The position numbers and the translations under genes are program-made. A stretch of DNA of 64,000 nt from the human T2T-CHM13v2.0 reference genome, Homo sapiens: assembly GCF_009914755.1 (NCBI RefSeq), contig NC_060926.1; one strand, written 5' to 3'. Positions 28,884 to 61,832 of the stretch are shown piece after piece. The notes under the pieces were generated by a model that did no database searches, was not told where the DNA came from, and saw nothing but the letters and a program-made list of their open reading frames with translations. Numbering within the stretch: the stretch's first letter is position 1; the number at the start of each line of letters is the position of its first letter.

Positions 28884-30202
28884 ATATCCTTTTAAAATTT
28901 TACTTTCTGTTAGTTGCAGGATCTAAAATAAGTATTTTTTATGATTAATAGTTTATCAATTTTTTGATTAATTTTTTTTCAAAGTTGAAAAATAATATAG
29001 AAAAAGAAGAACACCAATTGTGTGCTCAAGTATGTATTCAAGCCTGGTGACTGTTTTTTTTTTTTTAACCTCCTGTTATTACCTCTTGGGGAACTCTTCT
29101 TAGACTTTAGGGTAGATTTCAGGACTGAATGATGGCTTTGGCCACCCCAGCATTTAACCTCCTAGTGGACAGCATTACTGAACGTTTTATAAAAGGCAGC
29201 TAGGTCCATTTTGTCTGTGTAGCCAGGATGCAATTCATGGTTAACAGTTAAAGGTATACCTTACGATTATTATTACCAGGATTTTAAACATTTTGAGGGT
29301 TTTTCTGTAGAATTTGGTCTTAAAGGATTTTTGAATTTATAGATTTTTGTGTACAAACAGGGAACCTGTGGTTCTTTGTATAGGACTGAACATACAATGA
29401 GAATCTGATTATCTTTTTAAGTTAATGTTAATAAAATTTTACACAAAGATTATCAAGTAATTTTGTGATAAAAATTCTGGCCGAATTTAGTATTTGTATA
29501 TCTTATGACTATGTTTGGAAGAATTGGCTAAACTTTTTATTTTGTGAAATAAGTCCTATTAGAATGCCTGTTTGACAACCTTGATTTTTGTAAGCAGCCT
29601 CAATTTGATACTGTCTGATGATTTCCTTCAGTCATTATGAACTATGTGTCAGTGCTATTATAGAGTAAAAACGATCTCTGTGTCTTTCAATTTTAAAGAT
29701 TTATGTGCTTTAATGTGAGGAGAGAATCTTTTTGGTTTGCCTCTTTGCTTATATTTGCTTAGTATTTTTTTCTTTGGGGATGAAATTTTGTGTTTTTGGA
29801 AAAACAATCTTTGCTCATAAAAATCTTGGCTAATTTTTCACAAGTTCTTTCTGTTTTTTAAGGAAAAGTTATTTACAAAATGGTAAAAATGAAGACACAT
29901 TTTTAAAAGTTTTTCAATCGTTTTCTGAAATTTGATAAATTTATTTCGGGGAAAATATACCTGGGAACTACTGCAGCATACAATTTATTAGTAGGCTCCT
30001 AGATTAAACATATTTTCAAAAATCACAATTAAAAACAGTTATTATTGATCTGTTGTATTATATAGCCCTCTTGTGGCCAGCTTTGTATATTACAGCCAAT
30101 TACTATTTGTCTACTTCAGCAAAATGAGAAACTAGAGTACCTTGGAAAGGCTATAAATCTGGCTTTTTGTTACTAATATTTTTTTCTTGACATATATATC
30201 AT
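28884..30202 (+). other. U12-type (minor spliceosome) intron, 1319 nt, apparent AT-AT termini
   Basis: 5' end ATATCCTTTT matches the U12 donor consensus; TTTTTCTTGAC at 30181-30191 resembles the U12 branch site (TTCCTTRAC) with the branch A 12 nt from the 3' end; frame is kept when the intron ends at ...TCAT|ATT CCA GAA. Confidence 0.85.
30063..30079 (-). promoter_or_regulatory. Candidate CTCF motif inside the U12 intron
   Basis: minus strand TGGCCACAAGAGGGCTA resembles the CTCF core CCASYAGRKGGCR with some mismatches. Confidence 0.3.
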
Positions 30203-42233: not shown

Positions 42234-43266
42234 CAGTTGTCCCCTCTTATCTGTGGTTTAGTTTTCTGTACTTTCAGTTACCTGTAGCCAATGGCTGTCC
42301 GAAAATATTAAATGGAAAATTCCAGAAATAAGTAATTTATAGATTTTAAATTATATGCCATTATAAGCAGGATGATGAATTCTTGTGCCATCCTGCTCTG
42401 TCCCACCTGGAATATGGATTGTTCCTTAGTCCAGTGTACCATGCTGTATATACTACTCACTTGTTAGTTATTGACATTGTCTGCTCCTGACATCCAGCCA
42501 TCACATTGTCATGGCCTGATGATTCAGGATCACCTGAAGCAGATATTCCTCCTTCTGATGACATGTTGTTAGAAGGTCATTAGTAGCCCGATACCATGTC
42601 ACAGTGCTTACCATCATTCACTTCACTTCATCTCATCACATAGGCATTTTATCATCTCATATCATCCCAAGAATAACAGGAGTGAGTATAGTACAATGGT
42701 CCCCCTCTTATCCTCAGGACATGTTCCAAGACCCACAGTGGATGCCTGAAATGAGGGATGGTATCCAAACCCTATATATACTATGTTTTTCTCCTACAAT
42801 ACATACCTATGATAAAGCTTAATTTATAAATTAGAGATAGTGAGAGATTAACAGTAATAACTAAAGATAAAATAAAACAATTATAACAATACTCCGAATG
42901 GCATCCAATTGAAAACCTGTGAATTATTTCTGGAGATTTTCATTTAATATTTTCTGACCATGGTTGACCATGGGTAACTGAAACTGTGGAAAGTGAAACT
43001 AGGTATAAGGGGGACTACTATACATAAGGTATTTTGAGAGAGAAAGCATGTACACATTCACCTAACTTTTATTACAGTATATTGCTGTAATCTATTATCA
43101 CTTACTGTTGTTAATCTCTTACTGTGTCTAATTTATAAATTAACCTTTATCATAGGTATGTATGTGTAGGAAAACATAGTATGTAGAGAGTTTGTTATTA
43201 TCCATATTTTCAGGCATCTACTGGGGGCTTTGGAACGTGTTCCCTGAAGATAAGAGGGGACTACTG
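42234..43266 (+). mobile_element. MER44 (Tigger7-family) DNA transposon, host copy
   Basis: TIRs cagttgtcccctcttatc ... gataagaggggactactg, TA on both sides. Confidence 0.8.
42694..43020 (-). mobile_element. MER44A-like MITE nested in the opposite orientation
   Basis: TIRs caatggtccccctcttatc ... tataagggggactacta, TA at 42692-42693 and 43021-43022. Confidence 0.75.
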
Positions 43267-43965
43267 TATTTGCATACAAGTTCATAATTATCTTCTTGGG
43301 GAACTTGTTCTTACATCCCAGAAGAGACAGACAAGCTAATTCATTCTCCTTGTGAGTTACTCTTTCAGTGAGGGTAAAGCCTGTCAAGGGTCTCAGCTTT
43401 AGATGGGATCTCAGTTCTATCTCTGAGCCTTGTGTGAGCCCAACATACCTTGTGATCTGTTTGCTCAAGGACTTTAAAACCACTGGCACAGTGTTAGTGC
43501 TTGTCATTAATTCCTTCTTTTTTTCTGGTAACTGGAGAATTCCACTTTTGTGTGAGCTCAAATACGCATTCAAAAGATTACATTTATATTTTATCCAGCT
43601 TTTCCAACCATTCGTAGTGGGAGAATTTTCAGGTCGTCTATTTTGCTTAATCGTTACAGCTGGAAATTTCCTTGCTGAGTACTTCATGTGTATTCTTTCT
43701 GTTCATTTCTCTTTGTTAGCACTTTAAAGTTTATATATTTTTTAATTTTCAGCTTAGCTCTCTTTACTCATCTTTAGCCATTAGGAAAAGAAATAGTAAT
43801 GTTCATTGTGTAGAGAATAGATACCTCTTTGGCATTTTAAGCAATTTGATTAAAAATAGCACTGCATAAAATATTGTGACAGAAATTGGTGTCTATAAAT
43901 TACATTTAAACCACAGTTTGATTTTGAGGCTATCATCTAATTCTAGTTTTGTTTTATTTTTACAG

Positions 43966-44793: not shown

Positions 44794-45132
<339 letters not shown>

Positions 45133-49183: not shown

Positions 49184-50403
49184 GTAAGTGTAAATGTAAG
49201 AAAGAAAATAAGAAAAAGCTTTATGTTATGTATGTTATGTTGGGATATACTGTTCCTATAATATCCAAAAGAAAAAAAAATGTGGTTGTAGATAACTTTA
49301 AATTGTCTTTTATTTCCTCTGATATATCTATGTAACTTCTACCTTACCAGTCTTTTTCCCTTAATCTGCCAGAGTTCACGACGGCCTAAAGTTCTTCAAA
49401 GAGAGGTAGATGTGTATGATATTTTCATTAACTAGCAACATGGCTTTAACTGGAAATGGGGAAAAACCGCTTTGAAGTATTTGTGTGTGTATGGGTGTTT
49501 AATTAATATGGTTAAATTTAAAAGAAGGTTTCTTGGATTTATGTGTGTTTTTTTTTTTGACAAAGTGATTTAAGCTTAATATTAAAGAAAATTTATATTA
49601 TTGAGCTTAAAAATAATACTGAGTATAATAGTGTATTTTTCTTATTAGTGTTCAAAGTATTTTGGACCAATTATAGGTAGCATATTTGAGTCTCTTTACA
49701 TTCATCATTGCCACTGTATTACTAACATCTTAAAAATGACTTGGATATTTTCTAAATTAAAATAAATTTAATTGCTAGCAGCATGCTCATTTGCAAATAA
49801 CTTTTTTTTTGCTTCTATGGCAATTAACTTTGATAAAATAAGCCTATAAAGTCTTAAATTCTGTATATTATGGCTTTGGACTCATTTTGAAAATCAGCGC
49901 TCTCATTGCATGTAAGTTAACTTTTAAAAAGCAGTAATGAAAAATCTTGAAATGACATTGTAAGTAAGTAAACTTAAGCAGTTTTAGTCTCCACAACCTA
50001 GATTTTCGTGAGTAGAGAACATTGAATCAGACATTTCTTCTAGTAGAGTCTATTTGTAGGAGCTTTCTTGGTCTTTGACAACGTGTTTTCACTGTAAGCA
50101 AAAACTGGAAACTCTGTAAGAGGCTTTTGCCTCTAATGCTGGTAGAGAGTACTTTAAAAAACAGCTTGGATGTTAAAAAATAGTGTATACTGTCATTTAA
50201 CTCACAAAAGCTCAACTGATATTACAGCATCCTTTCTATGCTCGCTTTTAAAAAATAAATTCATTAAACTGACTCATATCTTAATTAAAAGATGTTTTCT
50301 GAGAGCCCTGGTGCAGTTTGATTGCTTTAGCAAAAAAGCTTTTTAGGAGATGAATTATTGAGGAAAATACTTAGTTTAAAAAAAAAACTGTTCAAAAAAC
50401 AAA

Positions 50404-50426
50404 TCATAGTCCTTGACCCACAAACC
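50404..50426 (+). repeat. Left arm of a perfect 23-nt inverted repeat
   Basis: TCATAGTCCTTGACCCACAAACC, exact reverse complement of 52138-52160. Confidence 0.95.
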
Positions 50427-51071
50427 AAAAACAAATCAAAAACAAATCACAAATCACAGTTTTAATTTCATATTAAAATTTAATAAAACAAATTAAATTT
50501 CATATTAAAATATGAAAGTTTGATTTTTCATCCTTATATTTCAATTTAGTAACTTTAAGCATTTATGTTAGAATTTTCAAACTTTAAAGTTCCTTAAAAG
50601 TGAAATTAATTACTAGTTCAGATTTATTAGCTTAGAAAATTTTTTTAAAAACTAATTTATAATTTTCTTAACTGGAAACTTTAGCAGTCTTCCAGAAGTT
50701 AGTAAGGAGTATCCTATTCTTCATGGATGTTGACCAGAACAGCTTTTCCTCTTTTAAAGTAATGAATAATTTAGTTTATGATTCTCTTTAATATGGCTGT
50801 AGATACTACTTAAGCTTTGTCTGTTTTCAGAAGGTTGAAAAGGAGATGTTACTGCTGATGATCTCCTCCTTATTACTGTTTCTAGATTGAGTGGGATTAA
50901 ATATATTTGAGAGAGAGGTCAAGGGAGAAATTTATTTAAAGAGCAAATCTATTGAATAAATCTTTGTATGAAACTGAGCATTCCCTTTAGAAAATATAGT
51001 ACTAATATGTTTTTAAAATGATGCTAAATAACTTCTCTTGATTTTTCTTTGTTTCTCTTTGTTAATGGTAG

Positions 51072-51532
51072 AATTCTGGTACAGCTCAAGTTTTCAGTTT
51101 AGTAGCAGAACGTAGAAAGAAATTTCAGGAAATCATCAATCGCAGTAGCAGTGAAGCAAATCAGGTGGTTCGTCCCAAAACTTCAAGTAAATGGTCTGCT
51201 CCTGGTTCAGCTCCACAGTTAACTACAGCCATTTTGGAAATTAAAGAAAGCATATTGTCTTTGCTAATTAAACTTCACCACAAACTCTCAGGAAAACAAA
51301 ACTCCTACTATCCTCCTTGGCTTGATGACATAGAAATTTTAATCCAACCAGAAATTCCTAAATACAGTCATGGAGATGGTATAACTGCCGTGGAAAGAAT
51401 TTTACTAAAAGCTGCATCGCAAAGTAGAATGAACAAACGCATCATTGAAGAGATATGTAGAAAAGTGACCCCTCCTGTACCACCTAAAAAAGTCACTGCA
51501 GCAGAGAAGAAAACATTGGACAAAGAAGAAAG
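51072..51532 (+). CDS. UBR3: UBR3 coding exon O (461 nt, phase 0-2)
   Basis: pyrimidine tract then aatggtag|AAT acceptor, AAG|gtaatt donor; NSGTAQVFSLVAERRKKFQEIINRSSSEANQVVRPKTSS...KKTLDKEE(R); includes ORF 51165-51536. Confidence 0.94.
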
Positions 51533-52137
51533 GTAATTTTTATTTTTAATGTTTTAAACGTGTGTATAGTTGAAAATTTGATATTTTCTTCCTTTTGGTC
51601 ATTTGAGGATAATCACCTGGATGTTTAACAGGAACAGTCATAGCTGATTAGTTTGTAACATAAATGGAATGGAGCATAGTCAGTGCTTGTACATGTGATG
51701 TATTGAGTTTATTGATGGACAGGTGAGACTTTCTGACCCCAATGTAAAATTACTACCTTAAACCTGTATGTCTCTTTGGAAAAATTGCTACTGCTTTTAT
51801 TGCTGTAGGGATCTAATAATTCTCTTACTGTTAAAGTTGAACTGTTCAGCTTTAAATGAGAATATTAAAAATATTTAAAATATTTCTCAAAATAAAAATC
51901 CAACTGCTTTAGTTTCTTTTGGTCTTTTCTAATCTTTATTAATATATGATTGCTGATTTTTAAAAAGTGATGTTTTAAAACACATTCTGACTAACTTATG
52001 CTTCTAGCTTTTGGATCTTTAGGTTGCTTATAATTTGTTGTTAAATTATATTTATAAACTTTTTTTTCATCTTTTGACTTTCTTGAAAAAAAAATGGGAT
52101 TTTTTTAAAATCTCAAGATATATACTATGTTATGTGG

Positions 52138-52160
52138 GGTTTGTGGGTCAAGGACTATGA
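52138..52160 (+). repeat. Right arm of a perfect 23-nt inverted repeat
   Basis: GGTTTGTGGGTCAAGGACTATGA, exact reverse complement of 50404-50426. Confidence 0.95.
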
Positions 52161-52849
52161 GCATGGTTTGGTTCTTTTTTTTAGTGGTACATTGTTTGCC
52201 AGAAGAGTTGTGTTACTGTGCATTGTCACAAATTGTTTCCCAAGAGCCTTGTCAACATTGCTGACCCTGCTGTCATAAACATGACAAGGTGAATCTTGAG
52301 AGATTGAAACTCTGCATAATTGTCAAACTCTTGGAAAGGGTTCAGTGTTTATTAAAGAAAAAAAAAAAGAGCATGCCTTCTAATGAGTGTACATAGGCTA
52401 AAAGACCCAGGACATTTAAAAAAAAGATTTCAGATCAAATTCAAGATAGTCATTGCTCACTTCTCTGAGGTTATAAATAATATTCATTGTTTTAATTTCT
52501 TTATTATTTAAGACAAATTTGTCTACCAAAGCAACAATTATAGGGGAAGGGTACACATTTCCCGTTAGGGAGGGTCCAAAGAGATCACATCAATATTATC
52601 TTAATTTAAGAACCTAGGACCTTTATCATCTCAATCTGTTTTATATAGGTAAAAATCATTGTCAACAGAGTTATCTGGACTACTGTTGTGAGCAGTATGA
52701 CTAATACATTATTTAGCAGTTTGAAGTGTACTTTAGAGGTATTTTCTGGATAATTTCATCTTCTTAGTTACTTTTAAAATTAAATATAGGCAGTTATGGG
52801 TTAAATGATCAGTGGAAGCAAGCCTAAGATGGATCTTACTTGATTGATC

Positions 52850-53850
52850 CGTTTCTCATTCATTGGGTGTCAGTCAAGCAGTTTTCTAGACATATCTGTG
52901 TCTGGTGTTGGACTTCCTGACCTCGAGGAATTGATACTATAATGGAGAGACAGACTGGTAAACAGATAGTTTGTTAGTAGTGTTAACATAGTGTAACAGA
53001 TACTATCTTAGGTACACAGGGTGTTAATGGGAGTAGTAGGACATAAGGCTAAGAAGGTAACCATGTATCGTTAACTCGCACAGGGTATAAATGGTTACAG
53101 GGAAACTGTGGAAGGATTTTAAGTGAGGAATAATATATAGGGTAATTACATGAGGGTAGATTAGAGTGGGGTAAGACTGGAAATTGGGAGAGCAAGCTAC
53201 TTAGTCATCTAGTGGGGCAGGTGTGGTAAGGGTCTGAACTAAGACAGTGATGATAATAAAGAGAGGAGGAGATGTGTATGAGATATTTAGCAGGTACAAG
53301 TTGTTAGACTCAGTCATCAGGTTGATGTGAGAAATGAGGGAGATGTCTTGAATGGTGCCCTGATTTCTGACTTGAATAATGTTCCTTTTACCAAGATAAT
53401 GGAGTGTAGGAGGGGTCCCAGGCTCATTAGTAAAAGTGATCTGTTCAGTTCTGGACGCTACTAAGTTTAAGAGGGACACCCAGGTGAAGGTGTCCAGTCA
53501 GATATAGGGTTTAAAACTTAAGGGAGAATTCTTAGAGCTACAGATTTGAGCAGCTAGGTAGTAGTAAATCCTTGTATATGGGAGAAGGTTTACAGTAAGA
53601 AAATGAGAAGACTGAATATAGAACTTAAGGGAAAAACATTAAAGGGAATGACTGAGGAAGGGGTACCTACAAAGGTGACTGACGAAGGGATGGCTGAGCA
53701 GAGTAAGAGAAAAACTGGGGTGAGTGGCATTAGAGAAGTCACAAGAGGAAGTTCAGAAAGCAAGAAACTTATCAAAATTGTTAAGTGCTACAGGAGTTCA
53801 ATAAGATTGGCCATCCTATTTGATTTGTTAGTTAGGAGGTCATCCGTTGG
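52850..53850 (-). mobile_element. Degraded L2
   Basis: purine-rich antisense L2 body; boundaries approximate. Confidence 0.5.
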
Positions 53851-53921
53851 TACCTGTATAAGGAGCAATTTTAGTCACATATATAGTTACACTACATCTC
53901 TGATGTAATTAAAAGTTTGTT

Positions 53922-54186
<265 letters not shown>

Positions 54187-55635
54187 TTATATTAATATAT
54201 GCAAAAGCTTATGGTAGATTAAGAATTTAGGAGAATTCCTAAATTGGAGTTATAAAGAACTAACACAAAATTTGTTTCCGTGGGAGAAAGGACATTCAGT
54301 AACATATAATTCAGATGACCATTCATTAAGTTTGAATTAGTAATAGCCTAGAATGTAATAAATCTACTGACAAAATTAGAAGGTTGAAAATGAGGTAAGA
54401 TTGTTATTTTTGTTAATTAGTGGTCTCTCTTAGTGGTCAGATCCTTCTTTCTGTTATATAATAGTATATCCTTTTATTTTGAAAGAAGATAAACAGTGAA
54501 TCAAAATCTGTTTTTCTTGATTAAGGGAATTTTGTAATTATTACTAATAATGTGATACTGGAGGACATAGTTTAGATGCTGCTTTTACAAAGGCCCTGAT
54601 GCTATTGTAATAAATAATATTCTAAAAATTTTAAAGGCTTTCTTTGTGATAGGTTTTGTTTTCTTTGAACAATGATGGTATTGACAAGGACTTGAAACTA
54701 ATTTTGTAGCAGACAGCTAAGGATTAAGATGACTCTATTTGGATCTCACCGTGCTTCTCACATTTGTCTTTCCTCTGGTTTCGTTTTGGATTTTCATAAT
54801 AAAGGCAGAACAGTTCATAAACACTTAATGAGGATCCATTTCCAAGTACTTCACCTTTAGACAAACTCAGCATCACTTTCATAATAGATTAACTTAATAG
54901 AAAACAAGATGCAAGCAGAAAACATTAGATGGTTGTAATAAAATGCAGCTTCAATGTCTTTAACCCAGGAGTTAATGGAAAATTTTTGAGTTGTCCTGAA
55001 TCTGCCAGAACTTGTATATGTTCTTGTTAATGGCCTTTATTTACATTTATGCCCATTTAGAAAAGCAATAATCTCGATTAAGAAAACATTCACAACAATG
55101 ACATCCCATTTCTGGTTAGTATAGAAACCTGCTATAGAAATGCATTTTAGTATTAGTGTCAAGCAGTTACATTTGAGGTTTTCTTATGTTTAATAGATTT
55201 TTAAAAAGTACACTCTATGGACATATGTATTCTAATTGTAAGTGTACATGTTTAAAGGTGAGCTGTAGAGTGAGTGGCATTAATTAAAGAAGTATGGCAA
55301 AACTTACAGATTTACGAACTAGTGATTCAGAAGACCAAAAATGTAGTCTGTCAATGCTGTTGTTGCTCATAGCATTTTTGGAGGTCACTTAGAGTGCTTT
55401 GAGCATCTAGAGCACATTTTTCTTTGCTTCCATTTCTTCCATTGTGGCAAATATTTGTCCTTTGAGGATGGATTTAATTTTAAAAAGCTTTTTATTTTGA
55501 AGTAATCTTAAACTTACATAAATGGTTCAGGAAGTTCTTTGTACCCTCAACTATCAGAATTAGCAGATTGATAGTGGTATTTGAGTATGATTTAGATCCC
55601 AAGTTTTGATAGTTGTCCCAATAATGTTTGATTTG

Positions 55636-55690
55636 TCTTGTCTTGTCTTGTCTTGTCTTGTCTTGTCTTGTCTTGTCTTGTCTTGTCTTG
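55636..55690. repeat. (TCTTG)11 pentanucleotide microsatellite
   Basis: perfect repeat next to an AluJ tail. Confidence 0.95.
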
Positions 55691-55709
55691 TCTTCTCTTC
55701 TTAATTCAT

Positions 55710-56010
<301 letters not shown>

Positions 56011-56037
56011 CCAATAATATTTCTTTTGTTACTTACC

Positions 56038-56340
56038 TTTTTTTTTTTTTTTTTCGTTTTTGAGACAGAGTCTCTTTCTGTCACCCAGGCTGGAGAGCAG
56101 TGGCGCGATCTCAGCTCACTGCAACCTCCGCCTCCTAGGTTCAAACAGTTCTCTGCCTCAGCCTCCCGAGTAGCTGGGATTACAGGTGCTTGCCACCATG
56201 CCCGGCTAATTTTTGTATTTTTAGTAGAGACAGGGTTTCACCATGTTGGCCAGGCTGGTCTTGAACTCCTGACCTTGTGATCCACCCGTCTCGGCATCCC
56301 AAAGTGCTGGGATTACAGGCGTGAGGCACTGTGCCCAGCC
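56038..56340 (-). mobile_element. AluS
   Basis: antisense Alu. Confidence 0.88.
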
Positions 56341-56979
56341 AGTAATATTTCTTATAGCAGAAAGATCCAGTTCATAATCACTCCTTGCATTTAGTTGTCA
56401 TGCCTCTTTGTTCTCCTTCAATATGGAAGTTTTTGTTTTCATAACCTTGGCACTTTTAAAGATTATGAAGCAGTAGTAACATTGTAGAATATCCCTTAAT
56501 TTGGGATTGTCTGTTTTCCCTTTATGTTTTGACTCAGTTTATACAACTTTGGCAGGAATGTAAATGAAGTGTTGCTGTTTTCTTTTCATTGTATCCCACA
56601 AGCTGTTATATGATTTCAATTTGTTTCATCACTGGTGATTAACTTTGATCATGTCTGCCAGACTTCTTCACAGTCAAATTACCTTTCCCACCCCACTTTA
56701 CAATTAATACGTAATTTGTGGAGAGATACTATGAGATATTGTAATATCCCAATTCATATCAACTTTATATTCATTTATTTTTATCAGTGTGGACTCATGG
56801 GTTCCTATTTTATTTTATGGGTTATAATCTCATATGCTTGTTATTAATTTTGGTGCTCAAATTATTACAGATTTGGCCACTAGGAGTCATGTCAAGCTGG
56901 TTTCCGGGTCCTTTTGATGTATTCCCATCATTCTTTGAGCATATTCCTATTTTCTGGGGCAATAAGATGTTCCAGGCTT

Positions 56980-57318
<339 letters not shown>

Positions 57319-57681
57319 TCAGCCATTTCTCCAAGGAGTCCTGGTTGCTTTTAGGAGAGAATGGTATTTAGAAACCCCAGTCCATGTGTTTATTCTAATG
57401 AAGTATAGCTGTCTCAGGCCCTCTTAGGACAGAGCTGGGGAAAATTGTGTGTGTGTTTCTTTGTTTGTCTGTGTTTGTGTTGGAAGGTAGTGTGAGAGAG
57501 GAAGGGAGAAATTTATATTTAGTTTTATGTCTGACTTTATGTACTGAAAACTGTGAGTTCACTCTGATACTTTCAATTCCAATCCATCCCTCTAGGAGTC
57601 ATTCTTGTTTTCTCTCTTTCTCAGTTTCCAGAGTAACTCTGTAACTCTCTACTTCTGCAGTGAGATACCTGACACCTATAA

Positions 57682-57797
57682 CTCTCTCTCTCTCTCTCTC
57701 TATCTGTGTATCTATCTATCTGGATAGATATATTTAACTTTTTTAGTTAAAAAATTACATATATTTAACTAAAATGTTATATATATATATATATATA
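57682..57797. repeat. Compound (TC)n/(TATC)n/(TA)n microsatellite
   Basis: seen directly. Confidence 0.8.
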
Positions 57798-58795
57798 ACT
57801 TTTTTAAAAATCAACTCCCTTATATATAACCACTTTCTTCTAATCTTTTACCATACAAATGCCCTCCCGTGCCAGGTTGTCGAGTCCTGACACTCTGTGC
57901 TAGGACATGTTCAGAAAGGGAAGAGAGGGGATGGGTAGATTTAATTTTTTGAAATGGCCAACATCATTGAGAGTTAACTTTGATGAATAAGTTGAGTGAT
58001 CAACCTGGATAATAATATTTTGGCTCAAAAACAGTATAAAAGAATTGTTGTTATAAAATAATAAGGCGAGTTTTTTATGTGGATCCTAAATTATCTGTAA
58101 ATGTTAGAAAAGGAGTGTTAACAATTTTTTGAATATTATTGGCAAAAATATGTAACTTCTCATGGTAAAGTGGACCACAGAACTTGACTTTGTAGTTGCT
58201 CCTGATTATCCCCACTAATTTCATGGGAGCAAATGTGTGGATAATTTAAAAATTACTGTATTTCATTCTTCTGAATTTTGTATGTTATATCCTTGAATCA
58301 TATCAGATTAATAGAAAAATACTTTTAGGTTTCCCATAACAGTGATTGCATAGACTCTCAGTTTAACATAATGCTTTGACTTCTATACTGTATAGATATA
58401 ATAAATGGTCATTAAAGAAACTGCTGTAGTATACTCTGTCCATTATGTTCTCATGTCTTCTGTATTATGGGTATGACACAAAGGACATCAGTTCCTCTTT
58501 GAGTTTTGTTCAAGTAAAAATTTATCTCTTCCGTGAACTAACATATAATTTACCTTTTCTAACCTTTCATTTTTTCTTCTTCCTCTCCTTCACTTCTTGT
58601 TTAAATTATTAATTTAACTTTTCCTTACTGGGAGTGAAACTTTATGCTTACTAGTATTGTTAGCATCACATAATCTGAAGAAACCTGTCTCCTTTCTTTA
58701 TTAGTTGACTTATTTTCCTATTCTTATGTTATGGTAACACTGTATTGGTGGATTTTTTTTTTTGGCAACCAGTTGCAATTAAAATATTCTTTGGA

Positions 58796-59226
58796 TGTCC
58801 ATCAGTGATAGACTGGATTAAGAAAATGTGGCACATATACACTGTGGAATACTATGCAGCCATAAAAAAGGATGAGTTCATGTCCTTCGTAGGGACATGG
58901 ATGAAGCTGGAAACCGTCATTCTGACCAAACTGTCACAAAGACAAAAAACCAAACACTGCATGTTCTCACTCATAGGTGGGAATTGAACAGTGAGAACAC
59001 TTGGACACAGGAAGGGGAACATCACACACCAGGGCCTGTCGTGGGGTCGGGGGAGGGGGGAGGGAAAGCATTAGGAGATATACCTAATGTAAATGACGAG
59101 TTAATGGGTGCAGCACACCAACATGGCACATGTATACATATGTAAGAAACCTGTACATTGTGCACATGTACCCTAGAACTTAAAGTATAATAAAATAAAA
59201 TTAGCCGTTAAGCTACAAAAAGAAAA
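58796..59226 (+). mobile_element. Short 5'-truncated L1PA with extra 3' sequence, sense orientation
   Basis: ORF2 end plus 3'UTR; perfect 15-bp TSD aaaatattctttgga at 58781-58795 and 59227-59241 at a TT/AAAA site. Confidence 0.93.
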
Positions 59227-59916
59227 AAAATATTCTTTGGAAGTAGATAAGGCATACATAATAAATATAATATAGTGAATTAATCCAAGGGAATATTTAG
59301 GGCTTTGTAATACAGTTTTATTCTTATGTTGTGTTTGAGACTCCTTCACATTCTTTTACTTTATACAAAATAAACCAAACTTGAAATATGTCCTAGTAGA
59401 AACGGGGAAACTTACTGGCTTCTGTTCATTCTCTGTTAGGAGAGGCCTATTCTTAGGGTAACAGTAAATATGACTATTCATATCTTTTAGACTTTGTTTA
59501 TATCTAAACATCATAGCTTCTTCTAGCAATCAGTTTACTGTTATTTGTGCCTGGGATTAAATTGTTAGTCTCTGCTAAAAAAATATGTTCTTGGTCTTGC
59601 TACCTTCTGACGTATACTTAGGAACTTGTGTTATTGGAAATCCAAATATTCTATCTACCTTAATTATTATTTCACATTTTAAAGTACATCTTGGCTTTTA
59701 TTTTTATCTATTAAACCAGTGAGTTTGTAACCTTTTAAAATTAGTAGAATCCTTTTAAGGACAATCAAGTATTAGAAGAAATTTAATACATAATACAGAA
59801 AATAGATTGTTCTCACCTGTGTGCCAGGGGCTTTTCATACATTATATACTCCTGAAATATAGTAGCTAGGTCTTAAGCGCATCTGATACTTAAAACTTTA
59901 TTTCTGTTTAATCTAG

Positions 59917-60005: not shown

Positions 60006-61029
60006 GTAAGTCAAAATTATTAGTTTAGAACTCTCATAATTATACTTATTACTTTAGGGATGATGTAGTCCAGTCTTTTACTAATTTAAAACATTACACA
60101 CTTTTGATTTCTAGTGTTTATTTGGTCCTTAAACAATATAGTGATGGAAGATCAGACTTTTATTATAGACTTTTATTATATTCTGTTGTTAGTAGCTGTA
60201 ATTGTTAGGAAGTTCTTCCTGATGGTAGCAATATAGTATGCTCCTTTTGTTCTCTTCTGTTAAACGGTCTTTAGATTTGTGAGATCCATCAATGTACATT
60301 TACTTGTCTTGATCTTTTTCTGTGAAATTATCTTAAAATCCTTAAAATAGTTTCAAATGCTTCTAGTGCCTCTTTCTGGTATCCCTTCATTATTTCTTAA
60401 AATCAGGTGAACTTCTCATTTCCATTAAGATTAGCATTAGAATTTATACAGTGAGAGAGGATACCATGTTTCTGTATGATAGTAGCCTTTTACACACATT
60501 GGAGAAATAGATTAAATCTCAGTGTCAGTCTTTAGTTAACCAGGGTATTCCCTTCCCTGACTATTTCTTCCATTCCAGCAAATTTTTTTCTTTGATTTTT
60601 AGAAAAAATTGTGGAAAGAAAATAAAGTCATGCATTTAGTTAAAATACACACATATATGCATTCAAGCAGGCATGTACATTTTCATGCATTTTTGTTTAC
60701 CTAAACTCATAACCAACTTCCTGAAGAAATGTATAGCGATCAGTTCAGATTTAGCCTAATGGGTTCTAAACCATCTAGTGTAGTTAATGTTCAGGATATA
60801 ACTTTGACAGAAAGAATACAGATTGAGCACCCCTAATCTGAAAATCTGAAAATCTGAAATCTAAAATGTACCAAAATTCAAAACTTTCTGAGCATTGACT
60901 TTCCACTTGTGGCATCATGCCACAAGTGGAAAGTTTTTAACTTAAGATTCGTCTTTTGAGTTCCTTTTCTGGCAATTGTTGATTTCCTTTTCATTTGGGT
61001 CTGTTACTGGAGAGCTATGAAGTTCAAAA

Positions 61030-61300: not shown

Positions 61301-61434
61301 ATTTATCCATTTCTTTTAGGTTTTCCAACTGGTTGGCATATAGTTGTGGCATGATGCCACAAGTGGAAAGTTTCACACTTGACCTCTTGTGATGGGTTGC
61401 AGTCAAAACTATATTTCATTTACAAAATTATTTA

Positions 61435-61832
<398 letters not shown>

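What the first reader, a model, noticed from the sequence alone, without database searches (positions are those of the whole stretch)
50404..52160. Perfect 23-nt inverted repeat in unique sequence brackets the largest exon
Seen: TCATAGTCCTTGACCCACAAACC (50404-50426) and its exact reverse complement (52138-52160) lie 645 nt upstream and 605 nt downstream of exon O. The sequence is complex and I see no transposon around either arm, so chance is very unlikely. Established: long-range intronic RNA duplexes control exon skipping and circularisation. Inference: the duplex loops out the 461-nt exon. Skipping joins N to P out of frame (GCG ACA GAA GGC TAG), removing the RING and predicting NMD; alternatively it yields a single-exon circRNA. 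A neutral templated-repair origin is the alternative explanation.
Basis: partly seen in the sequence, partly recalled or inferred. Interest (0 to 1): 0.75.

Follow-up and report, generated by a model that had tools for sequence, protein, structure and literature searches.

The report
Unique 23-nt inverted repeat around UBR3 exon
Two perfectly complementary 23-base stretches sit in the introns on either side of a 461-base UBR3 exon; they are real and unique in the genome, but most likely a neutral copying scar, with any effect on splicing untested.

Summary
The 23-mer at 50404-50426 and its exact reverse complement at 52138-52160 are the only two copies in the 3.1-Gb genome at up to 2 mismatches. 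At 3 mismatches there are 4 extra hits against 29 for the reversed control, so this is neither chance nor a repeat family.

Homology stops at the arm ends. The left arm interrupts a short A/C-rich tandem array. The array unit abuts the arm on the left and resumes inside its last 7 nt. Removing about 14 nt in silico restores one array, score 54 to 76. The right arm shows no comparable interruption.

My best reading is a templated insertion with microhomology at both junctions, copied in reverse from 1.7 kb downstream.

The RNA helix is thermodynamically strong: -42.3 kcal/mol, 23/23 pairs in the MFE. It is the only sizeable complementarity across the exon. Skipping does give ATEG-stop.

However, 30% of random placements with this spacer bracket an exon. 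The 23 bp are below the ~30-40 nt shown sufficient for circularisation. No expression or conservation data could be reached.

The parts
50404..50426 (+). Left arm of the exact 23-nt inverted repeat, in intron N-O, 645 nt upstream of exon O
52138..52160 (+). Right arm (exact reverse complement), in intron O-P, 605 nt downstream of exon O; the likely template or source copy
   Evidence: It starts inside a local TG-rich stretch. The intact region gives no TRF row, and the deletion scan gives only weak junction-spanning arrays, best score 39.
50407..50419 (+). Probable foreign core of the left arm (about 13-14 nt, 50% GC) that interrupts the A/C-rich array; the exact boundaries are ambiguous by 1-2 nt
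   Evidence: GC is 0.50 in the core against 0.29 and 0.14 in the flanks.
50393..50458 (+). A/C-rich tandem array (unit ACAAATCAAAA and relatives) into which the core appears inserted. The unit 9-mer lies at 50398-50406 (its last 3 nt are the first 3 nt of the arm), 50430-50438 and 50441-50449. TRF starts the array at 50420, inside the arm.
51072..51532 (+). UBR3 coding exon O, 461 nt (not a multiple of 3), with AG/GT splice sites; it is enclosed by the two arms
   Evidence: hub annotation
49184..51071 (+). Upstream intron N-O, which carries the left arm; it holds no better internal partner for the arm
51533..59916 (+). Downstream intron O-P (8.4 kb), which carries the right arm. It also holds several Alu copies that pair with each other and with an Alu in intron L-M.

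Best explanation
The repeat is a mutational scar. A short templated insertion or template switch (of the FoSTeS/MMBIR, short-template-switch or polymerase-theta end-joining kind) copied about 13-16 nt in reverse-complement orientation. The source lies in intron O-P and the recipient is an A/C-rich tandem array in intron N-O, 1.7 kb away. Microhomology at both junctions (TCA on one side, ACAAACC on the other) stretches the exact match to 23 nt. The event is probably fairly young, or else the arms are constrained, because all 46 arm positions are unchanged. It is most likely selectively neutral. As a by-product, the pre-mRNA can form a 23-bp helix that encloses exon O. That helix may slightly favour skipping (then NMD) or back-splicing, but nothing shows that it does. 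Shown: the repeat is unique, it has abrupt ends, the array is interrupted, and the helix is thermodynamically stable. Inferred: the direction of copying, the mechanism, the age and the neutrality.
For: Only two copies exist in the genome, and near matches are not enriched: 4 extra hits against 29 for the control. The flanks are single-copy.

Homology ends exactly at the 23 nt under strict scoring. The other sample-unique inverted repeats in 264 kb of UBR3 behave differently and extend as longer imperfect repeats: 104, 141 and 193 aligned columns.

TRF places a period-11 array at 50420-50453, starting inside the arm. The unit 9-mer occurs 5 times in 64 kb, and 3 of those flank the core at 50398, 50430 and 50441.

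Among 154 in-silico deletions, removing 14 nt (50405-50418 to 50407-50420) gives one array running from 50393 over 52 nt, with the score rising from 54 to 76. The same scan of 204 deletions at the right arm gives at best score 39 with 1.9 copies, and the intact right region gives no TRF row.

The core is 50% GC inside flanks of 29% and 14%. Template switching that creates inverted copies and hairpins is a documented human mutation class (PMC5453318, passages read).
Against: No outgroup or population sequence could be reached, so the ancestral state is not seen; the direction and the mechanism rest on anatomy alone.

The deletion scan picks the best of 154 trials in an A-rich context, without a formal null.

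At 50425 the arm has C where the array consensus has T, so the right-hand microhomology is imperfect. The array could also have expanded from a pre-existing arm end.

The right arm has a small ACTATG direct repeat nearby, which leaves the reverse direction open.

Published short-template-switch scans looked only within 100-200 bp, so 1.7 kb is beyond their range.

No other isolated exact inverted repeat of >=18 nt was found in the 264 kb sampled. Such scars are therefore not commonplace, and perfect preservation could also mean constraint.
Confidence: 0.58

Rival explanations
1. Functional long-range RNA helix. The 23-bp duplex forms co-transcriptionally, loops out exon O and measurably promotes either N-P skipping (frameshift, early stop, NMD) or a 461-nt single-exon circRNA, and it is maintained by selection or at least has a phenotypic effect. 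This is compatible with a templated-insertion origin.
For: Duplex energy is -42.3 kcal/mol. All 23 of 23 pairs appear in the MFE of the 1957-nt and 4217-nt contexts, with pair probabilities 0.97-1.0 and a net gain of -22.4 kcal/mol. Before the right arm is made, 13 of 23 left-arm bases are unpaired, including the last 10, so there is a free toehold. It is the only complementarity above 13 nt between the two flanking introns. Skipping gives ATEG-stop. Exons looped out by stable complementary regions have lower inclusion (PMC8052449, passages read). Short inverted repeats can drive circularisation (PMC4201285). Both arms are perfectly preserved.
Against: The 23 bp are below the ~30-40 nt shown sufficient, and that was in mini-introns with the repeats next to the splice sites. 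The same paper also states that stability alone does not predict circularisation. Here the arms lie 645 and 605 nt from the exon. The exon has canonical AG/GT sites, and RefSeq lists one transcript without skipping (hub table). No paper in the library names a UBR3 circRNA. Only 1-2 gene-level circular reads are listed in three tables of PMC3764148, with no exon named. Bracketing an exon is expected for 30.4% of random placements. Structures that loop out exons are generally depleted. UBR3 was absent from the held supplements of two long-range-structure catalogues, though the full lists are not held.
Confidence: 0.2
2. Relic of an old inverted duplication or of two opposed copies of an ancient, highly diverged repeat, of which only a 23-nt core survived intact, by constraint or by arm homogenisation.
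For: Loose alignment finds A/T-rich similarity on both sides of the arms (second alignment). Ancient families at 70-75% identity would escape the genome searches, which give lower bounds. Template switching between imperfect inverted repeats can homogenise arms (PMC8604942, search listing only).
Against: The flank similarity is gapped low-complexity sequence and disappears under strict scoring. There are no additional copies at <=3 mismatches above the control. The spacer contains a coding exon. A perfect 23-mer with no graded decay at its edges is not what an old repeat pair looks like. The array interruption points to an insertion.
Confidence: 0.1
3. Chance coincidence.
For: None beyond the A/C-rich versus T/G-rich character of the two contexts.
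Against: 0 of 100 shuffles gave 2 matches. Genome-wide there are only the two copies, and the control gives 0 at <=2 mismatches. The arithmetic expectation for an exact 23-mer inverted pair within 2 kb is far below 1, even genome-wide (my calculation).
Confidence: 0.01

Closest known systems
Template-switch and templated-insertion mutations (FoSTeS/MMBIR; short template switches of Loytynoja & Goldman 2017, PMC5453318; polymerase-theta templated insertions, recalled)
   Same: A reverse-complement copy of nearby sequence is inserted in one step, with microhomology at the junctions. It creates an inverted repeat or hairpin potential without selection.
   Different: The template is 1.7 kb away, whereas the published human scans searched only 100-200 bp around mutation clusters. 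The ancestral state is not observed here.
Intronic complementary sequences that drive exon circularisation (inverted Alus; short repeats of Liang & Wilusz 2014, PMC4201285)
   Same: Inverted complementary sequences lie in the two introns flanking an unusually long internal exon. There is no stronger within-intron competitor for either arm.
   Different: The repeat is 23 nt, not 30-40 nt or more. It is not Alu-derived. It sits about 600 nt from the splice sites rather than beside them. No back-splice junction is known.
Long-range intronic RNA structures that loop out exons (PCCRs, PMC8052449; RIC-seq-based PHRIC structures, PMC10691357)
   Same: The helix lies far below the -15 kcal/mol threshold used there, it spans less than 10 kb, and it encloses a whole exon. 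Such loop-outs are associated with lower inclusion.
   Different: Conservation, compensatory substitutions and RNA-RNA contact reads are all unknown for this pair. UBR3 does not appear in the held supplement files, which do not include the full catalogues.

Membership tests
Templated insertion / template-switch mutation | The inserted segment is an exact reverse-complement copy of a nearby sequence | tested here: met
   23/23 identity to the reverse complement 1711 nt away, and unique in the genome
Templated insertion / template-switch mutation | The segment interrupts an otherwise continuous recipient sequence | tested here: met
   The array unit lies on both sides of the core. TRF score rises from 54 to 76 after in-silico removal of 14 nt. 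The right arm shows no comparable effect. This is the best of 154 trials, with no formal null.
Templated insertion / template-switch mutation | Microhomology at the switch points | tested here: met
   The first 3 nt (TCA) and last 7 nt (ACAAACC) of the arm are in register with array units; 6 of those 7 match the array consensus
Templated insertion / template-switch mutation | The ancestral or outgroup allele lacks the insertion | not testable with these tools
   No other eukaryotic genome is held. A genome-contig scan with the exon O peptide found no relative.
Intronic complementary sequences for circRNA biogenesis | Inverted complementary sequences in both introns flanking the circularised exon | tested here: met
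Intronic complementary sequences for circRNA biogenesis | Repeat length at least that shown sufficient (~30-40 nt) | tested here: not met
   23 nt here, against ~30-40 nt (36 and 40 nt for ZKSCAN1) in PMC4201285
Intronic complementary sequences for circRNA biogenesis | A back-splice junction of the enclosed exon is observed | not testable with these tools
   No RNA-seq data are available. The literature searches found none. Only gene-level counts of 1-2 reads were found.
Conserved long-range splicing-regulatory RNA structure (PCCR-type) | Stable complementarity (<= -15 kcal/mol) within 10 kb | tested here: met
   -42.3 kcal/mol with a 1711-nt spacer
Conserved long-range splicing-regulatory RNA structure (PCCR-type) | Both arms conserved, with compensatory substitutions | not testable with these tools
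   No orthologous sequences could be reached
Transposon terminal inverted repeats / dispersed repeat family | Multiple related copies in the genome | tested here: not met
   in addition the spacer holds a coding exon
Known structured RNA family (Rfam) | A match at the gathering score | tested here: not met
   0 matches in the whole window

The most novel reading that the evidence does not exclude
A lineage-specific templated insertion from 1.7 kb away created, in one step, a perfect 23-bp intron-intron helix around a frame-shifting UBR3 exon. That helix now measurably diverts transcripts into NMD-coupled skipping or a single-exon circRNA. This would be a datable, de novo birth of a long-range RNA-structure splicing switch by template switching.
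Probability: 0.1. Interest if true: 0.6.

Novelty: new member of a known kind. Interest (0 to 1): 0.27.

Why it matters
If the anatomy is read correctly, this is a clean example of a template switch over about 1.7 kb. That is well beyond the 100-200 bp searched in published human scans, and it produced long-range RNA pairing potential across an exon in a single mutation. It would then be a natural test case for whether a 23-bp intronic helix some 600 nt from the splice sites is enough to affect exon inclusion or circularisation. Without conservation or expression data it remains a curiosity. There is no sign that UBR3 regulation depends on it.

Tried and rejected
Repeat-family origin: rejected by genome-wide pattern searches and flank searches.

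Chance: rejected.

Known RNA family: none at gathering score in the whole window.

Orthologous DNA: a genome-contig scan with the exon O peptide matched 270 pattern stretches, none confirmed. No eukaryotic relatives are held, so the conservation test could not be run.

The background therefore rests on 264 kb of UBR3 itself.

Literature:
- 'circUBR3' returned 0 papers.
- UBR3 plus circRNA returned 12 papers. The two I opened concern turkey and rat and give no exon detail.
- UBR3 plus hsa_circ returned 2 reviews.
- Jeck 2013 is not held.
- The Salzman 2013 supplements give only gene-level counts.
- The held supplements of PMC10691357 and PMC8052449 do not mention UBR3, and those of PMC10573301 are not readable. 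The full catalogues are not among the held files, so absence there says little.

RING location: a Pfam scan of 49 Cys-containing open stretches downstream of exon P found no RING. The test is inconclusive, because the domain may be split over exons or atypical.

Soft-masking as a repeat guide: the files carry no case information.

Full report
**1. The observation.**
The 23-mer TCATAGTCCTTGACCCACAAACC lies at 50404-50426, and its exact reverse complement lies at 52138-52160. There are 1711 nt between the arms. They sit 645 nt upstream and 605 nt downstream of the annotated UBR3 exon at 51072-51532.

None of 100 dinucleotide-preserving shuffles of the window gave two matches. In the whole own genome (3.1 Gb) a pattern search at up to 2 mismatches finds only these two places, and the reversed-pattern control finds none. 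At up to 3 mismatches there are 6 places including the two arms, against 29 for the control. There is therefore no enrichment of near copies.

The 471-nt stretches around each arm find only themselves in the genome. The one exception is a 67-nt, 85% AT-rich hit on another chromosome for the left one, matching window 50451-50517 and not the arm. The tool warns that such counts are lower bounds, so very old diverged repeats cannot be excluded.

Within the window there are 163 exact inverted pairs of >=23 nt. Of these, 11 have both arms outside the 20 masked stretches listed by the hub. By eye, 8 of those 11 are Alu sequence (recognised from recall). The remaining 3 are this pair, an AT-rich pair 30 kb apart, and a 28-nt pair at 60898/61344.

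**2. Anatomy.**
Homology ends exactly at the 23 nt. A strict local alignment of the +-300-nt flanks returns the 23-mer alone. A lax alignment only adds gapped A/T-rich low-complexity matches.

I also examined 264 kb covering the UBR3 gene (the window plus loci). Only three exact inverted repeats of >=18 nt with a spacer <=3 kb have arms unique within that sample: an 82-nt one, a 36-nt one, and this one. The other two extend as longer imperfect repeats, 104 columns with 102 identical and 141 columns with 120 identical. An inverted repeat at 42.7/43.1 kb likewise extends to 193 columns. The 23-mer does not extend.

The left arm sits inside an A/C-rich tandem array.
- Tandem Repeats Finder reports a period-11 array (unit ACAAATCAAAA, 3.1 copies, 91% matches, score 54) from 50420 to 50453, so it starts within the last 7 nt of the arm.
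- The 9-mer AACAAATCA occurs 5 times in the 64-kb window on both strands. Three of these are at 50398-50406, 50430-50438 and 50441-50449. The first straddles the left edge of the arm.
- In a scan of 154 in-silico deletions, removing 14 nt (50405-50418, 50406-50419 or 50407-50420) gives a single array running from 50393 over 52 nt, with score 76.
- The same scan of 204 deletions at the right arm gives at best a score of 39 with 1.9 copies, and the intact right region has no TRF row.
- The core is 50% GC, between flanks of 29% and 14%.
- The right arm starts within a local TG-rich stretch and runs into more complex sequence of 39% GC.

**3. Most likely origin.**
These features fit a templated insertion. 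About 13-14 nt, roughly 50407-50419, would have been copied in reverse-complement orientation from the site at 52138-52160 into a pre-existing array. Microhomology is present at both junctions: TCA on the left, and ACAAACC on the right, where 6 of 7 positions match the array consensus. The microhomology is what extends the exact match to 23 nt.

Template switching that creates inverted copies and hairpin potential is a documented human mutation class (PMC5453318). The passages I read show that the scan in that paper looked only 100-200 bp around mutation clusters, so a 1.7-kb jump lies outside what it could detect. Kilobase-scale switches are the domain of FoSTeS/MMBIR, and short templated insertions that of polymerase-theta end joining (both recalled, not checked here).

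The direction of copying and the mechanism are inferences from anatomy. The weak points are these:
- The deletion scan has no formal null.
- One arm base (50425) departs from the array consensus.
- A small ACTATG direct repeat lies near the right arm.
- No outgroup sequence could be reached.

On age, using recalled approximate human-lineage divergences, 46 unchanged neutral sites would be likely for an event of ape or Old World monkey age. They would be very unlikely (order 10^-3) for an event predating the placental radiation. The pair is therefore either fairly young or constrained.

**4. Does it work as an RNA switch?**
Thermodynamically the helix is strong.
- The duplex energy is -42.3 kcal/mol.
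- All 23 pairs are in the minimum-free-energy structure of a 1957-nt excerpt, with pair probabilities of 0.97-1.0.
- All 23 pairs also appear in a 4217-nt context, and forcing the left arm open costs 22.4 kcal/mol.
- Before the right arm is transcribed, only 10 of the 23 left-arm bases are paired, weakly, with 50721-50733. The last 10 bases are free.

It is the only sizeable complementarity between the two introns flanking exon O; the next best is 13 nt. Skipping exon O (461 nt) joins N to P out of frame and reads ATEG-stop. By the usual rule this stop is far enough upstream of later junctions to predict NMD (established knowledge). Looped-out exons have lower inclusion in a large catalogue of complementary regions (PMC8052449, passages read).

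Several points weigh against function.
- Short repeats shown sufficient for circularisation were ~30-40 nt and lay in mini-introns next to the splice sites. The same paper stresses that stability alone does not predict circularisation (PMC4201285).
- Here the arms are 23 nt and about 600 nt from the exon.
- Structures that loop out exons are generally depleted.
- RefSeq lists one transcript (hub table).
- No paper in the library names a UBR3 circRNA. Three supplement tables of PMC3764148 list only 1-2 circular reads for the gene, with no exon given.
- The position is not informative in itself. Of 57361 random placements with both arms intronic, 17451 (30.4%) enclose at least one whole exon, and 1251 (2.2%) enclose exon O alone.
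- A more conventional route to circles exists: an inverted Alu pair (44794-45058 against 56077-56340, 265 nt at 87%) brackets exons M, N and O.

**5. Comparison with what is known.**
By origin, the feature works like a template-switch scar. By potential effect, it works like an intronic complementary sequence pair or exon loop-out. It meets the complementarity and stability criteria of those classes. It fails the length shown sufficient for circularisation. Conservation, RNA contacts and junction reads could not be tested. It is not a transposon or a known RNA family.

**6. Verdict.**
This is a real, unique and non-random inverted repeat. The best explanation is a neutral templated insertion (confidence about 0.6). 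A measurable splicing effect has roughly 0.2 probability, and a selected function less than that. It is a new member of known kinds, and interest is low to moderate. The decisive data are outgroup alignments, population variation, junction reads under NMD inhibition, back-splice reads and RIC-seq contacts.

Noticed in passing
window 28884-30202 (intron between exons I and J): The intron begins ATATCCTTTT, a U12-type 5' splice-site consensus (recalled). It has a TTCTTGAC branch-site-like motif about 12 nt before its end. By the annotation it ends in AT rather than AC or AG, so it is apparently a minor-spliceosome intron with AT-AT termini.
   Followed up: partly
window 60898-60934 and 61344-61371: A 28-nt exact inverted repeat with a 418-nt spacer. 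Its left copy is itself an 18-nt palindrome with a 1-nt loop (60898-60915 / 60917-60934). It lies just downstream of exon P and next to a masked repeat at 61410-61745, so it may be a small palindromic mobile element.
   Followed up: no
window 42692-42881 and about 43080-43270: An imperfect inverted repeat (193 aligned columns, 153 identical, with exact cores of 19 and 17 nt) and a spacer of about 300 nt, lying within intron K-L some 700 nt upstream of exon L. It has the potential to form a long intronic hairpin.
   Followed up: no
window 44794-45058 versus 56077-56340: An inverted Alu pair (265 nt, 87% complementary) brackets exons M, N and O (740 nt together). This is a conventional substrate for a multi-exon circRNA. 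Other Alus in intron O-P pair with each other and would compete.
   Followed up: no
L022 (window coordinates about -9892 to -9789 and -8512 to -8431, upstream of the window in UBR3): A near-perfect inverted duplication with an 82-nt exact core (104 aligned columns, 102 identical) and a 1276-nt spacer, unique within the 264 kb sampled.
   Followed up: no
L004 (window coordinates 81913-81948 and 82649-82684): A 36-nt exact inverted repeat that extends to 141 columns at 85% identity, with a 700-nt spacer, in a downstream UBR3 intron.
   Followed up: no
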